Shown here piece by piece: positions 29,831 to 63,141 of a stretch of 64,000 bases of DNA (its first letter is position 1; each line of letters begins with the position of its first letter). The DNA comes from Octopus vulgaris. Its lineage: Eukaryota. The notes under the pieces are model-generated. The model made no database searches and was not told the origin of the DNA. It worked only from the letters and a program-made list of their open reading frames with translations. Location of the stretch: NCBI GenBank assembly GCA_951406725.2, contig OX597819.1:97526001-97590000 (forward strand). Direction: 5' to 3'. A program made the translations under genes and the position numbers.

Positions 29831-29924
29831 TGCCCGCAGAGGGACTCGAACCCCCGACCCTCAGATAACTTAACTGCTTCCTTTCATTAAAAGTCTGATG
29901 CTCTACCGACTGAGCTATGCAGGC
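29831..29924 (-). tRNA. tRNA-Lys(UUU), 21-nt intron (divergent type)
   Basis: Cloverleaf, anticodon TTT, intron ATGAAAGGAAGCAGTTAAGTT after position 37, U4.G69 and G50.U64 wobbles, T5 terminator. Confidence 0.9.
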
Positions 29925-30702
29925 TTCCGACCTTCCGCTTTAACTTTTAGACAAATGAAATATTTTGGACTCAGCTACACATTCCTTGTTAACTGAAACG
30001 ATTGTTGCATAGAGCTGTCATCTGATATCTTACGTCACCCCGTAGTGATTACTAATAATTCCTTCACATTTACTGCTGATATTTAATATAGTAATTCGTT
30101 CACTCATCAAGTCCCATCCTGGTAAAGTCATATTGGTCATTCAAAATGTATATACACTACTCTCTTTCAATTATAATCCTTTCTACTCTAGGCACAAGGC
30201 CCGACATTGACAAAGTTACACTGAGTCTTAAAAATTCCCTTCGGTCACGAATGACCAAGAAAGTTCCTCTCCGAGTCACAAGTCCGGGCAAGGTTGTTTG
30301 TCGAATACCAGTCAGTCCTTTCCACAACGCTGATGTTGTCCAAGAAAACGACAAAGGCCGATTCAGTTTGGCAACAGTAATGTCGCAAATTATTTCTACT
30401 GCTAAGTGAACTGGAGCAATATGAAATGAAGTGTCTTGCTCAGAAACACAACTCATAGTCCGGTCTAGGAATCGAACTTACAACATCACGATTGTAAGCC
30501 CAATGTTCTAACCACTGAGCCATGCATCTTCACAAAAAGGTCATCGTAAAGCCACAACGGAGAATCGAACTTTGTATCTCTCAAATTATCTTGAAAACAC
30601 CTAATAATTTATAAACATCTAATGTTAAAGTGGAAAAATTATCAGAACATTTTTCTATTCAGTTTTGCAAATATAGAATACTGTACGATTGACTATTTGT
30701 TT

Positions 30703-30812
30703 TACTACTACTACTACTACTACTACTACTACTACTACTACTACTACTACTACTACTACTACTACTACTACTACTACTACTACTACTACTACTACTACTA
30801 CTACTACTACTA
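30703..30812. repeat. (TAC)n microsatellite
   Basis: Direct reading; shorter paralogue near 44014-44080. Confidence 0.95.
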
Positions 30813-31823
30813 CAACAACACACACACACACGCACGTGTATCTCCCTTTGCAGGATAGAGGACGCCGTGATGGTGTCAAGCCTATCTGGCGACGTTGATG
30901 TTCGCCTGGGGCTAAATGCAACAGTAACACCTCCACCACCCTGCCCTGTCCCTAGCCATATTCAGATGGCTTTAGTCCCTTATGTTATGGAGCAGTTACT
31001 GTCTATATCTCATTTAGAGAATTATTATTGCTATATATATATATATATATATATATATATATATCAATAATTAAGGGTAAAATCAATTAGTTATTAATTA
31101 ATTTCACCAAGTATTTCTCAGTATGTAAAAACCATTCAAGGCGTATTCAAAATATTTCACGTGGATGGGAGGGGAAGGTACATAGATTCTTTACTTGCAC
31201 TGTTTGAATTCGCTGGCACTATCAATTCGGAGGTGTTCGTCTGAGGTGATTCATGTCGGATGAGTATGTTCATTATTTTTAGTGCTTTCAAATCCAAACA
31301 AGAAATGTTGAGCTGACGAAAGAAATGTCGAGTTTTAATTCGGCTAATCTAGAAACGTTGAACGTTCTCAAATAATCTTTGTACTTGTGATATTTTGTTG
31401 TTTTCCCTCCATGTCTACGTGAGTTATTTTTGAGGAAGCACTTTCAGGGAGATTCTTCTTAAAGTAGTAGAAATGGCTAAACAAAAATTTTTTTGGCTGC
31501 TATTTCTAAAAATTTCAGTATGTGGCAAAGTAAATTATTTTACTAAGCCCTTAATTATATAAATGTATATATATATATATATATATATATATATATATAT
31601 ATATATATATATATATATATATATATATATGAGAAAAAGAAGAAAAAAGAAAAAAAAGACGTACAGAAGTTGATTATTCATAGAAATTTAAATTCATGCA
31701 GAGAAATTCCTGCATACAGCTGTTTCCACACCTAATCAATTGAATTATGGAAATGTAAATTCCAATCTTTGAAACCAGTTAATTGGATATTTCTTCATGG
31801 ACAACTTCCAAAAGAAACTTCGT

Positions 31824-31915
31824 CGCCTGCAGAGGGACTTGAACCCGCGACCCTCAGATTTTATCACTCGAGAGTTCTTAAAAGTCTGATGCTCTACCGA
31901 CTGAGCTATGCGGGC
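31824..31915 (-). tRNA. tRNA-Lys(UUU), 19-nt intron
   Basis: Intron AGAACTCTCGAGTGATAAA (G at -3 lost); C4:A69 mismatch. Confidence 0.7.
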
Positions 31916-32340
31916 TTCAACCGCTAGATTTAACTTTTAGACAAATGAAATATAATGGACTTAGCTACACATTCCTTGTTGAAGGAAACGATTGTTGTAT
32001 AAAGCTGTCATCTGATATCTTATGTTACCCCTTAGTGGTTTCTAATAACTCCTTCAAATTTACTACTGATATTTAATATAGTAATTCGTTCATTCATCAA
32101 GTCCCATACTGGTAAAGTCATATTGATCATTCAAAATGTATATACACTATTCTCTTTCAATTATAATCTTTTCTACTCTAGGCACAAGGCCCGACATTTT
32201 TGTGGAGGGTGCCAGTCGAATAGATCGACCCCAGAGCGCATGTGGTATAATATAGCACTGTACCTATGCCTGTGTTTAGCCCCTTGTGGGTAATAAAGAA
32301 ATAGGTATAATATAGCCCTCATCTGTTTCAGTTGCATCAC

Positions 32341-32580
32341 GAAAACTATGTTATGAAGTATTTTTCCATATTTCTCCTGAAGGAGGTGTCATTTTTTGGA
32401 CATTTGTAAAAGGGAAAGATCTTAAATTTTCCTTCTCCACATGTATCTGGGTATTTACTCAGTGAAACACCTAGATACATGTGGAGAAGGAAAATTTAAG
32501 ATCTTTCCCTTCTACAAATGTCTAAAGAATGACACCTCCTTCAGGAGAAATATGGAACAATACTTCATAACAAAGTTCTC
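32341..32580. repeat. 240-bp palindrome, loop orientation A
   Basis: About 116-bp inverted arms around ACTCAGTG. Confidence 0.95.
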
Positions 32581-60485: not shown

Positions 60486-60521
60486 ATCTGAGGGTCGCGG
60501 GTTCAAATCCCTCTGCGAGCG
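60486..60521 (+). pseudogene. Inverted tRNA-Lys 3' half
   Basis: 3' exon only, B-box intact. Confidence 0.85.
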
Positions 60522-61393
60522 ACGAGTTTTCTTTTGGAAATTGTCCCAGAAGAAATAACCAATTGACAGGTTTCAAATATGAGAATTTAAATTTCTATAA
60601 TTCAATTGATTGGATGTGGAAACAGCTGCAAGCAGGAATTTCTCTGCATCAATTCGAATTTTTTTGAATTCGGAAATGCCCAACGTCGTCGAGTCATATC
60701 GAGGGAATGCCCATATATTAACAATTGGCTGTGTCTTCATGGGGTCACTCTGTTAGCTTACGCTAATGTATATTGACTATTCTTTACAGGTTTCTATTAA
60801 ATGTGTGAGTGTGATTTTCATTCTTTATCAAAGGATATCTATCTCTCTATATATCTTGTTTTCTGGCACTAATATCATAATATCTTATATAATCAATGGT
60901 GTTGTTCTTAATGCGCAGTTGTGGTGCAACGAAGTTTAATATATGAAAATACATGATAATATAAGAGGAGCCATTGTGTGTGATTTTAGATGGCTGAAAT
61001 GGATCTAGTACCATTTAAATGTATGTCTCTTTATAGATGAAAACTGTAGTCAGAGATCTATACTCATGCTTCATAGAATTACCAGCGCCGTCAGTTAATT
61101 TACATGTGACAATGATTATATTTTACTTGTTTCATCCATTAGACTGTAGCCGAAGATGATGACATAGCGTGGTAGGAATAAATGAGCAAAAGACTGAATG
61201 CTAAGGGAAATAGAAGAGCGTAAAAATATTTCGAAAGACCGGAATGACATTGCCAAGCTGGAAAACGTGATGGGCAGCAAGAAAGGATTGAGCAAAAAGG
61301 GAAAACAATTTTAACAGTTGCAGTGTGAAAATATGTTCGACTAAGAAAAAGAAAAAAAAAAAAAAAGAAATGGTATTGCATGAAAAAATTTGA

Positions 61394-61485
61394 CGCCTGC
61401 AGAGGGACTTGAACCCGCGACCCTCAGATTTCATAACCCGACAGTTCTTAAAAGTCTGATGCTCTACCGACTGAGCTATGCGGGC
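61394..61485 (-). tRNA. tRNA-Lys(UUU), 19-nt intron
   Basis: C4:A69 mismatch; intron core GTCGGG. Confidence 0.75.
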
Positions 61486-61851
61486 TGTCGTTCGTCCGGT
61501 TTAACTTTTAGACAAATGAAATATTTTGGACTTAGCTATACATTCCTTGTTAACTGAAACGATTTTTGAATAAAGCCGTCATCTGAAGCCTTATGTCACC
61601 TCGTAGTGATTACTAATAATTCCTTCACATTTACTACTGATATTTAATATAGTAATTCGTTCACTCATCAAGTCCCATCCTGGTAAAGTCATACTTGTCG
61701 TACAAGATGTATATACACTACTCACTTTCAATTATAATATTTTCTACCCTAGGCACAAGGCCCGATGTTTTTGTGGAGTGGGCCAGTCGAATAGATCGAC
61801 CCCAGTGCGCAGCTGGTATAATATAGCCCTCATCTGTTTCAGTTGCATCAC

Positions 61852-62090
61852 GAGAACTATGTTATGAAGCATTTTTCCATATTTCTCCTGAAGGAGGCGC
61901 CATTCTTTGGACATTTGTAGAAGGGAAAGATCTTAAATTTTCCTTCTCCACATGTATCCAGGTGTTTCACTGAGTAAATACCCAGATACATGTGGAGAAA
62001 GAAATTTAAGATCTTTCCCTTCTACAAATGTCCAAAGAATGACACCTCCTTCAGGAGAAATATGGAACAATACTTCATAACAAAGTTCTC
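61852..62090. repeat. 239-bp palindrome, loop orientation B (inverted)
   Basis: Centre reads GGTGTTTCACTGAGTAAATACCC. Confidence 0.95.
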
Positions 62091-63049
62091 CACCAAATTA
62101 AATGGCTGAAAATGTTTCTATAATATTTTGTACTAGATGAAGGACAAATTTTGTAAAGTAAATTGTATTAAACACACACACACACACACACATACACGCG
62201 CGCGCGCGCACACAAACAGTACTACACATATGTACATATACGTAAATAAAAACACTCTTTCATCCAGATTCTCCATCCCATATCAGCACAGGTATCAAAC
62301 ATTGGATTGAAAGACTCACCAGTTGCAAAAATGTAAACACATTTTTTCTTCTTTCACTCCTCCTCCTTCCTTTCATTCCCCTTTCCCATTGGACACACCT
62401 TTCTGATACACAGACACCCACCCACACGCGCGCACATACACGCACACACACACACACACACACACACACACACACACACACACATACACACACACACACA
62501 CGCTCTCTCTCTCTCTCTCTCTCACAAGACAATGATAAAAAAGAAATCCAGATAATTATTTGAAAAGTGACATTTTGCTCCGCTTGGAGTGACCAGCTGG
62601 GTTTGCCATTTCTAAAAGCCAAGAATCACTTACCATTGAAAGACTGACCAGCTGCAAAGATATCAGCAAATTTTTTCTTCTTTCTCTCCTTCTTCCTTTC
62701 CTTCTATTTTTCTTTAACACTACTTTAGGATACAAAAACACACACGATCTCTCTCTCTCTCTCTCTCTCTCTCTCTGTCACATTCTCCACATTCTTCACC
62801 CTCTTGTAGCCTCATATATCACTCCCCGCCCCTACACACTCAATAATACTATAAAAGGAGAAAAAATTCCTGCAAAAGTTCAATTTGAAAACTCCACTAG
62901 AGTGGACGAAAGAGCTTTTATATGATATATGACTCATAAAAAATGTAACATACTAATAAATATCTGTAAATATAAAACCATCCAGCAAATATAAAACCAA
63001 CCAGTTAATTGGACATTTCTTCTGCGACAATTTCCAAAAGAAAATTCGT

Positions 63050-63141
63050 CGCGCGCAGAGGGACTTGAACCCGCGACCCTCAGATTTCATAACACGGTAG
63101 TTCTTAAAAGTCTGATGCTCTACCGACTGAGCTATGCGGGC
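63050..63141 (-). tRNA. tRNA-Lys(UUU), 19-nt intron
   Basis: C3:C70 mismatch; intron core ACCGTG. Confidence 0.7.

What the first reader, a model, noticed from the sequence alone, without database searches (positions are those of the whole stretch)
29831..63141. Large co-oriented array of intron-containing tRNA-Lys(UUU) genes in an animal genome
Seen: 24 minus-strand copies in about 34 kb, each with an intron at the canonical 37/38 position, A/B boxes and an oligo-T terminator. Seven have consensus exons (33517, 35485, 42248, 54895, 56499, 57315, 58623). Established: in well-studied animals tRNA introns are mostly in Tyr(GUA), Ile(UAU), Leu(CAA) and Arg(UCU); an intron in Lys(UUU) is familiar from budding yeast. 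Inference: a lineage-specific, TSEN-dependent Lys(UUU) gene family amplified as a satellite-like array.
Basis: partly seen in the sequence, partly recalled or inferred. Interest (0 to 1): 0.8.

Follow-up and report, generated by a model that had tools for sequence, protein, structure and literature searches.

The report
Intron-bearing lysine tRNA gene cluster
This is a real cluster of 24 intron-carrying lysine tRNA genes in an animal, and copies scattered over the genome, likely made from RNA, suggest that such genes are transcribed, spliced and methylated; the intron also occurs in many other genomes, so it is probably an overlooked old feature and not an invention of this lineage.

Summary
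Observation confirmed: 24 minus-strand tRNA-Lys(UUU) copies with 18-21 nt introns at 37/38, and 4 more just past the window. Six, not seven, have the exact modal exons; 13 carry extra lesions. It is an irregular duplication cluster (spacing 484-3894 bp, two flank types, nine inverted half-copies), not a satellite. A second Lys(UUU) cluster with other introns and an intronless Lys(CUU) cluster exist, so clustering is ordinary here. All 62 clustered Lys(UUU) genes scored carry introns. The 27 intronless copies are dispersed, keep short leaders and trailers, often end in repeat tails, and 13 of 26 show A58-to-T (0 of 62 clustered genes): likely retrocopies of spliced, m1A58-methylated pre-tRNA. 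Thirteen dispersed unspliced copies carry this array's intron, which indicates its transcription; at most one spliced copy traces to it. The same kind of intron occurs in 83 of 83 metagenome matches read (54 animal-like bodies, taxa unverified), so 'lineage-specific' is doubtful. No RNA reads were examined.

The parts
29831..63141 (-). Cluster of 24 intron-containing tRNA-Lys(UUU) genes and pseudogenes; continues past the window (28 copies in about 38.5 kb)
29831..29924 (-). Copy, flank type A, different 21-nt intron; C4T, C50G, A57G, G73A; all stems pair
31824..31915 (-). Copy, type A; G69A mismatch and anticodon-intron pair lost (A at -3)
33517..33608 (-). Copy, type B, modal exons (exon 1 33608-33572, intron 33571-33553, exon 2 33552-33517)
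35485..35576 (-). Copy, type B, modal exons
36104..36195 (-). Copy, type A; G1A and G51T mismatches
36710..36800 (-). Degenerate copy, type B; six changes incl. U33A, C56T; 18-nt intron
37194..37285 (-). Copy, type A; G51T mismatch
41088..41179 (-). Copy, type B; T55C in the B box
42248..42339 (-). Copy, type A; G59A only, likely intact
44939..45030 (-). Copy, type A; G69A mismatch
46649..46740 (-). Copy, type B; C63T (wobble)
48330..48421 (-). Copy, type B; C65A and G67A mismatches
49189..49280 (-). Copy, type A; C40T, G46A, C50A, C72T; all stems pair
49794..49884 (-). Degenerate copy, type B; 1-nt loss in the T arm
51876..51967 (-). Copy, type B; C65A and G67A (duplicate of 48330)
52723..52814 (-). 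Copy, type A; C50A, C62T, C72T; all stems pair
53329..53419 (-). Degenerate copy, type B (duplicate of 49794)
54895..54986 (-). Copy, type B, modal exons
56499..56590 (-). Copy, type B, modal exons
57315..57406 (-). Copy, type A, modal exons
58623..58714 (-). Copy, type A upstream flank with type B downstream flank (recombinant), modal exons
60259..60350 (-). Copy, type B; C2T, C4A, T12A (A box and D stem)
61394..61485 (-). Copy, type A; G69A mismatch
63050..63141 (-). Copy, type B; G70C mismatch
34030..34069 (+). Inverted 3'-half copy (intron end, exon 2, flank)
41340..41380 (+). Inverted 3'-half copy
46937..46976 (+). Inverted 3'-half copy
48554..48588 (+). Inverted 3'-half copy, shortened
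52088..52122 (+). Inverted 3'-half copy, shortened
55171..55211 (+). Inverted 3'-half copy
56715..56749 (+). Inverted 3'-half copy, shortened
60481..60517 (+). Inverted 3'-half copy
63189..63227 (+). Inverted 3'-half copy

Best explanation
This is a cluster of intron-containing tRNA-Lys(UUU) genes, grown by irregular local duplication, that is likely transcribed by RNA polymerase III, likely spliced by TSEN at 37/38, and is one of several likely sources of the animal's AAA-reading tRNA. Shown: anatomy, copy number, two flank types, duplication blocks, damaged copies, introns in all 62 clustered genes scored. Inferred: transcription starts about 4 nt upstream (leaders GTCA or GGAA) and ends at the T run; TSEN cuts with the C32:G(-3) pair; about 6-11 of the 24 copies give a sound tRNA and the rest are decaying (birth and death). 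Inferred: a retroelement reverse transcriptase captured pre-tRNAs at three stages (unspliced, spliced with ends on, one CCA-ended) and misread m1A58 as T. The intron is probably old and shared with other animals.
For: Intron at 37/38 with G at -3 in 61 of 62 clustered genes and 83 of 83 metagenome matches. Two PF01974 loci over cut-off. 13 dispersed copies with this array's intron on ten contigs; in the 11 aligned, likeness to the array ends within 8 nt upstream and 1-21 nt downstream. 46 of 72 dispersed copies have a shared repeat tail right behind the T run, 0 of 62 clustered genes. Between-copy divergence 27-30% at -20..-5 against 0-8% at -40..-21 and 0.5-5% in exons (19 of 28 copies), the pattern reported for active tRNA genes (PMC6130373, passages). 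Precise intron loss in 27 dispersed copies whose leaders and trailers match intron-bearing genes. A58T in 13 of 26 scorable intronless copies, 0 of 62 clustered genes (p=9e-9; copies not fully independent).
Against: No RNA or ChIP data were examined. Only one ambiguous spliced dispersed copy (L014/L064) has this array's trailer, against 13-14 unspliced ones (1:14 against 8:23 for the commonest other family, p=0.23; p=0.04 if L014 is not counted; hand-assigned counts). RNAfold buries this family's 3' splice site: the canonical fold is a median 7 kcal/mol worse. Target-site duplications are rare: 5 of 72 against 3 of 72 in a control, two clear. The conserved -40..-21 stretch could reflect selection on a promoter element and not a mutation peak next to it. 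Taxa of the metagenome contigs are not established.
Confidence: 0.68

Rival explanations
1. The array is transcribed but poorly spliced: its intron end pairs with the anticodon in a shifted register that hides the 3' splice site, so mature Lys(UUU) comes mainly from the C9 cluster and other loci.
For: Predicted probability that A38 is paired 0.71-0.93 for 17 of 18 introns of this array and its neighbour, about 0 for the commonest C9 intron; at most 1 spliced against 13-14 unspliced dispersed copies; no A58T in 10 scorable unspliced copies of this family.
Against: The L046 intron has the same predicted burial (0.97) yet has spliced dispersed copies (L062, L233). Three metagenome introns end in the same letters with the same prediction. 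The ratio difference is not significant with L014 counted. Human TSEN reads mainly the mature domain and the A-I pair (PMC8479045, passages), both present. Exons and intron ends are conserved.
Confidence: 0.2
2. The array is a silent, satellite-like amplification of pseudogenes.
For: 13 of 24 copies carry extra lesions; microsatellite-rich spacers; T-stem mismatch in the modal copy.
Against: Dispersed copies bounded like transcripts come from both leader types; divergence peak just upstream; the 50-64 mismatch is genome-wide (59 of 62) and occurs in 7 animal-like metagenome bodies; no regular period.
Confidence: 0.07
3. The Lys(UUU) intron is a recent gain of this lineage.
For: The fly and worm lists of intron-bearing tRNAs contain no Lys (PMC4536317, 0 occurrences); human introns are in Tyr, Ile, Arg, Leu (PMC10275265 passages); recent gains are known in yeasts (PMC4090602 section 18).
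Against: At least ten unrelated-looking introns of 11-25 nt inside this genome; 54 metagenome matches with animal-like bodies, 44 different introns, 53 with a T run; one such contig (L150) has an intronless Lys(CUU) whose core matches this genome's.
Confidence: 0.12
4. The 92-nt RNA works unspliced as a long-arm tRNA with anticodon UUA (ochre suppressor), as ARAGORN calls it without its intron option.
For: 14 of 16 default ARAGORN calls read 'tRNA-Stop (tta)'.
Against: With the intron option 18 of 21 calls are Lys(ttt) with an intron at 38; the UUA reading needs two mismatches next to the loop (sequence); other introns in the genome do not keep that frame; intronless copies join exactly at 37/38.
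Confidence: 0.02

Closest known systems
Canonical eukaryotic intron-containing tRNA genes (TSEN substrates): animal Tyr(GUA), Ile(UAU), Leu(CAA), Arg(UCU) (PMC12168002 section 12; PMC10275265 passages); yeast Lys(UUU) (recalled)
   Same: Intron between 37 and 38, short, C32 paired with the third-last intron base, all genes of the isoacceptor carry it, introns vary among family members.
   Different: Isotype Lys(UUU) is not among the intron-rich animal families named in those papers; this array's intron has a weak predicted anticodon helix; C50-U64 mismatch in the T-stem.
Tandem tRNA gene clusters and arrays (Xenopus oocyte tRNA repeat, human chromosome 1 tRNA repeat, Entamoeba tRNA-STR arrays: all recalled; plant tandem duplications PMC12652284, search listing only)
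   Same: Many same-strand copies, microsatellite-rich spacers, growth by local duplication.
   Different: No fixed unit or period, 72-97% block identity, two interleaved flank types, many decayed copies, inverted half-copies.
U6/LINE-1 and tRNA/LINE-1 chimeric retrocopies (10.1101/2025.02.02.635956, passages)
   Same: A Pol III transcript fused 5' of a retroelement piece, dispersed over the genome.
   Different: There tRNAs are mostly halves in antisense orientation; here they are near full-length sense pre-tRNAs with leader and trailer, spliced or unspliced, with A58T; target-site duplications are mostly not found.
m1A58 reverse-transcription signature in sequencing (PMC4787781 passages) and m1A58 on human pre-tRNA before end trimming (10.64898/2026.05.17.725798 passages)
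   Same: Mismatch at position 58, to T or G and not C; present on molecules that still carry leader and trailer.
   Different: Here it is fixed in genomic DNA; it is commoner on spliced (13 of 26) than on intron-bearing dispersed copies (5 of 39).

Membership tests
Canonical intron-containing eukaryotic tRNA gene | Intron between N37 and N38, short | tested here: met
   18-21 nt in 24 of 24 copies
Canonical intron-containing eukaryotic tRNA gene | Anticodon-intron pair, pyrimidine 32 with purine at -3 | tested here: met
   C32:G in 21 of 22 copies scored and in both remaining copies by eye
Canonical intron-containing eukaryotic tRNA gene | Bulge-helix-loop with an open 3' splice site | tested here: inconclusive
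   Not the predicted fold for this intron family; also not predicted for 53 of 66 metagenome introns, so the test is weak
Canonical intron-containing eukaryotic tRNA gene | Cloverleaf mature domain, A and B boxes, T-run terminator | tested here: met
   22 of 24 over Rfam cut-off; 11 of 24 without lesions beyond wobbles and the genome-wide 50-64 mismatch
Canonical intron-containing eukaryotic tRNA gene | Splicing endonuclease encoded in the genome | tested here: met
   PF01974 matches at two loci, C4 and C23; other subunits and RTCB not searched
Canonical intron-containing eukaryotic tRNA gene | Intron removed in vivo from this array's transcripts | tested here: inconclusive
   Indirect for the isoacceptor (27 intronless dispersed copies); one ambiguous copy for this array; no reads examined
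Satellite or homogenised tandem tRNA array | Regular head-to-tail unit | tested here: not met
   Spacing 484-3894 bp; type order irregular
Satellite or homogenised tandem tRNA array | High identity between units | tested here: not met
   Blocks of 600 bp or more are 72-97% alike
Satellite or homogenised tandem tRNA array | Same orientation | tested here: met
   24 of 24 whole copies on the minus strand; 9 half-copies inverted
tRNA-derived SINE | Shared body or tail behind the tRNA head | tested here: not met
   0 of 62 clustered genes carry any of the seven tails seen on dispersed copies
Chimeric retrocopies (dispersed copies only) | Ends coincide with transcript ends | tested here: met
Chimeric retrocopies (dispersed copies only) | Fused to a repeat on the 3' side | tested here: met
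   46 of 72; the repeats were not classified against a repeat library
Chimeric retrocopies (dispersed copies only) | Target-site duplication | tested here: inconclusive
   5 of 72 against 3 of 72 in control; clear 15-bp cases L055 and L060

The most novel reading that the evidence does not exclude
The Lys(UUU) intron is a widespread, old animal feature that the model species lost, and this genome holds a fossil tRNA-seq: retrocopies of unspliced, spliced-but-untrimmed and CCA-ended tRNA, with m1A58 written into DNA as A-to-T, from which the order splicing, then most m1A58, then end trimming can be read without any RNA experiment.
Probability: 0.5. Interest if true: 0.7.

Novelty: new variant of a known kind. 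Interest (0 to 1): 0.5.

Why it matters
If right, the textbook list of spliced animal tRNAs (Tyr, Ile, Leu, Arg) reflects which species were studied, and AAA decoding in this animal leans on TSEN. The array alone is ordinary for this genome. The dispersed copies are the more surprising part: they give genome-only evidence of which tRNA genes are active in the germline, of processing order, and of a base modification, and the three intact intronless copies show a route to intron loss. The same count can be run on any repeat-rich genome.

Tried and rejected
No reads were laid, so direct expression and splicing evidence is missing. The run search listed 24 runs, 20 holding 10-45% of 38 words; none was laid, so it counts for nothing, also not for presence in related species. 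Five metagenome contigs could not be extended, so their taxa stay unknown; ARAGORN on 80 of the 128 metagenome loci gave no taxonomic cue; the other 48 were not listed or read. The window's zinc-finger protein gave no clade (atlas; exact look-up negative): 'octopus-like' is my recalled reading of the zinc-finger array, microsatellite load and genome size, not a result. Target-site duplication search was near control level. First regex passes skipped some clustered copies; one search replaced them. The ochre-suppressor reading and the idea that C50-U64 marks decay were rejected. My first guessed Lys(CUU) pattern found only 2 places; wider ones found 46 and 50. Paper searches listed nothing on animal Lys(UUU) introns or on A58T in tRNA retrocopies; the library is partial, the Schmidt and Matera 2020 review is not held, Fig. 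S7 of PMC12168002 (intron share by anticodon) could not be read from its supplement and may bear on novelty, and GtRNAdb could not be searched. Earlier-finding look-ups gave nothing relevant.
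Full report
Observation. BLAST of the 33517 copy finds 24 whole minus-strand copies in 29831-63141 and nine plus-strand 3'-half copies; Rfam scores 22 of the 24 as tRNA. Each has an 18-21 nt insert between A37 and A38, anticodon UUU, and a T run close behind. Default ARAGORN misreads 14 of its 16 calls as stop-anticodon tRNAs; with introns allowed, 18 of 21 calls are Lys(ttt) with an intron at 38. Six copies have the modal exons, five more have only wobble or harmless changes, and 13 have extra mismatches, box changes or a deletion. 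Four more copies follow within 4.3 kb of the window's end, none in the next 10 kb, and one with another intron 18 kb on.

Architecture. Spacing is 484-3894 bp. Self-BLAST shows overlapping duplication blocks of 0.6-4.3 kb at 72-97% identity, including one 3.5-kb tandem pair at 97%. Two upstream flank types (11 A and 13 B in the window) interleave irregularly, and at least one copy joins an A upstream to a B downstream flank. The nine inverted halves all lie 47-422 nt upstream of B copies; six extend 92-189 nt, past the terminator, so they are DNA-level inversions copied along with the unit; eight begin at a 7-bp fold-back hairpin. This is a birth-and-death gene cluster, not a satellite. It is also ordinary for this genome: C9:94.84-94.95 Mb holds 31 Lys(UUU) genes with other introns, and intronless Lys(CUU) genes form a 13-copy cluster in 26.5 kb on C3 (46 of 46 matches intronless).

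The isoacceptor genome-wide. An exact pattern has 107 matches; of 100 listed, 85 have an insert and 15 do not. All 62 genes scored in or beside clusters carry introns, 61 with G at -3; 59 have a pyrimidine mismatch at 50-64, which is therefore not decay. Two tRNA-endonuclease catalytic-domain loci are present. The A-I pair is what human TSEN needs at the 3' site (PMC8479045, passages).

Dispersed copies. I fetched 72 dispersed copies (27 intronless, 45 with an intron or intron relic; three of the 45, L009, L046 and L050, look like true genes; the set is not a full census: one search scored 40 of 231 candidates). 46 of 72 carry one of seven shared repeat tails right behind the T run, against 0 of 62 clustered genes. 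Intronless copies keep up to 7 nt of leader and the trailer of particular intron-bearing genes (for example L004 with L041, L067 with L009, L062 with L046). L060 ends in CCA inside a 15-bp target-site duplication; otherwise such duplications are near control level (5 of 72 against 3 of 72). Position 58 reads T in 13 of 26 scorable intronless copies, T or G in 5 of 39 intron-bearing ones (two of these found only by the targeted search), and A in all 62 clustered genes (p=9e-9 and 0.002). Away from the truncated 5' end, the CpG run at 48-51 and position 66, no other position exceeds 2 of 25. The T58 copies carry at least seven different trailers, and one source gene (L009) has both A58 and T58 offspring, so T58 arose repeatedly. 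Lys(CUU) shows T58 in 3 of 50 matches, all outside the clusters. Mismatch at m1A is a known reverse-transcriptase signature, low in C when G follows (PMC4787781, passages), and human pre-tRNAs carry it before end trimming, some even with the intron (10.64898/2026.05.17.725798, passages). I infer retrocopies of processing intermediates, like U6/LINE-1 chimeras (10.1101/2025.02.02.635956, passages).

Is this array active? Thirteen dispersed copies carry its intron. In the 11 aligned, plus a relic with a 4-nt intron, likeness to the array stops within 8 nt upstream and at the T run; flank alignment scores are 14-45 against 30-200 among array members. Both leader types occur. Among 19 of 28 array copies (degenerate copies and near-duplicates left out), divergence is 27-30% at -20..-5, 0-8% at -40..-21 and 0.5-5% in exons, the profile of active tRNA genes in PMC6130373 (passages). 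Against efficient splicing of this family: only one ambiguous spliced copy has its trailer, and RNAfold pairs the anticodon with the 3' splice site, the canonical fold costing a median 7 kcal/mol. But the L046 intron has the same prediction and has spliced offspring, and the ratio difference is weak (p=0.23, or 0.04 without L014). No reads were examined.

How widespread? In the 80 loci read, 83 of 83 genes have G at -3, with 67 different introns. 54 have an animal-like body by my sorting rule (51 with G73, 53 with a T run, 44 introns); 29 have another body, and three of those contigs match viral records by length and place, two labelled giant-virus bins. The taxa of the 54 are not verified; one contig carries an intronless Lys(CUU) with the same core as this genome's. 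Published surveys name Tyr, Ile, Leu and Arg as the intron-rich animal tRNAs (PMC12168002 section 12; PMC10275265 passages); the paper that lists the fly and worm intron tRNAs never mentions Lys (PMC4536317). All-or-none intron status per isoacceptor is the usual pattern (PMC4090602 section 18 part 1). Nine paper searches listed no report of animal Lys(UUU) introns or of A58T retrocopies, but automatic annotation in GtRNAdb or RefSeq, which I could not search, may already hold these genes. That the animal is an octopus-like cephalopod is recalled, not shown (uninformative).

Verdict. A real, probably active cluster of canonical intron-containing tRNA genes of an isotype not usually listed for animals: a new variant of a known kind. 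'Satellite-like' is not supported and 'lineage-specific' is doubtful. The most interesting by-product is the fossil record of tRNA processing in the dispersed copies. Interest 0.5.

Noticed in passing
window 9946-11523 (+): Single-frame C2H2 zinc-finger array, 525 aa, about 18 fingers with TGEKPY linkers.
   Followed up: partly
window 13042-13797 (+) and 5421-5810 (-): Frames that read like broken mariner/Tc1-type transposase pieces (recalled motifs).
   Followed up: no
window 38763-39128 (-) and 39349-39874: A frame resembling a Helitron/PIF1-type helicase piece (recalled) and a 165-bp repeat of 3.2 copies fill the longest gap of the array.
   Followed up: no
L061, L232, L234, L236: Dispersed copies whose introns are cut down to 4-8 nt, at least two between short direct repeats around the intron hairpin, as expected from a reverse transcriptase skipping it.
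   Followed up: partly
L002, L012, L020: Intact-looking intronless Lys(UUU) copies with T-run terminators; they could be transcribed without splicing, a route to intron loss.
   Followed up: no
L259 1482-1560: Dispersed copy with a Lys(UUU) body, an intron related to this array's family and a CTT anticodon; T arm deleted.
   Followed up: no
L260 1482-1620: Lys(CUU) dispersed copy with the same repeat tail as many Lys(UUU) copies, so capture of pre-tRNAs is not special to Lys(UUU).
   Followed up: partly
L099, L105, L135, L156, L160: Intron-bearing Lys(UUU) genes of a second body type, often in tRNA runs; L099, L105 and L135 match viral records, two labelled giant-virus bins.
   Followed up: partly
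introns of the array, positions 7-11: The intron centre is hypervariable while positions 1-6 and 12-19 are nearly fixed in 24 copies; CpG decay may explain part.
   Followed up: partly
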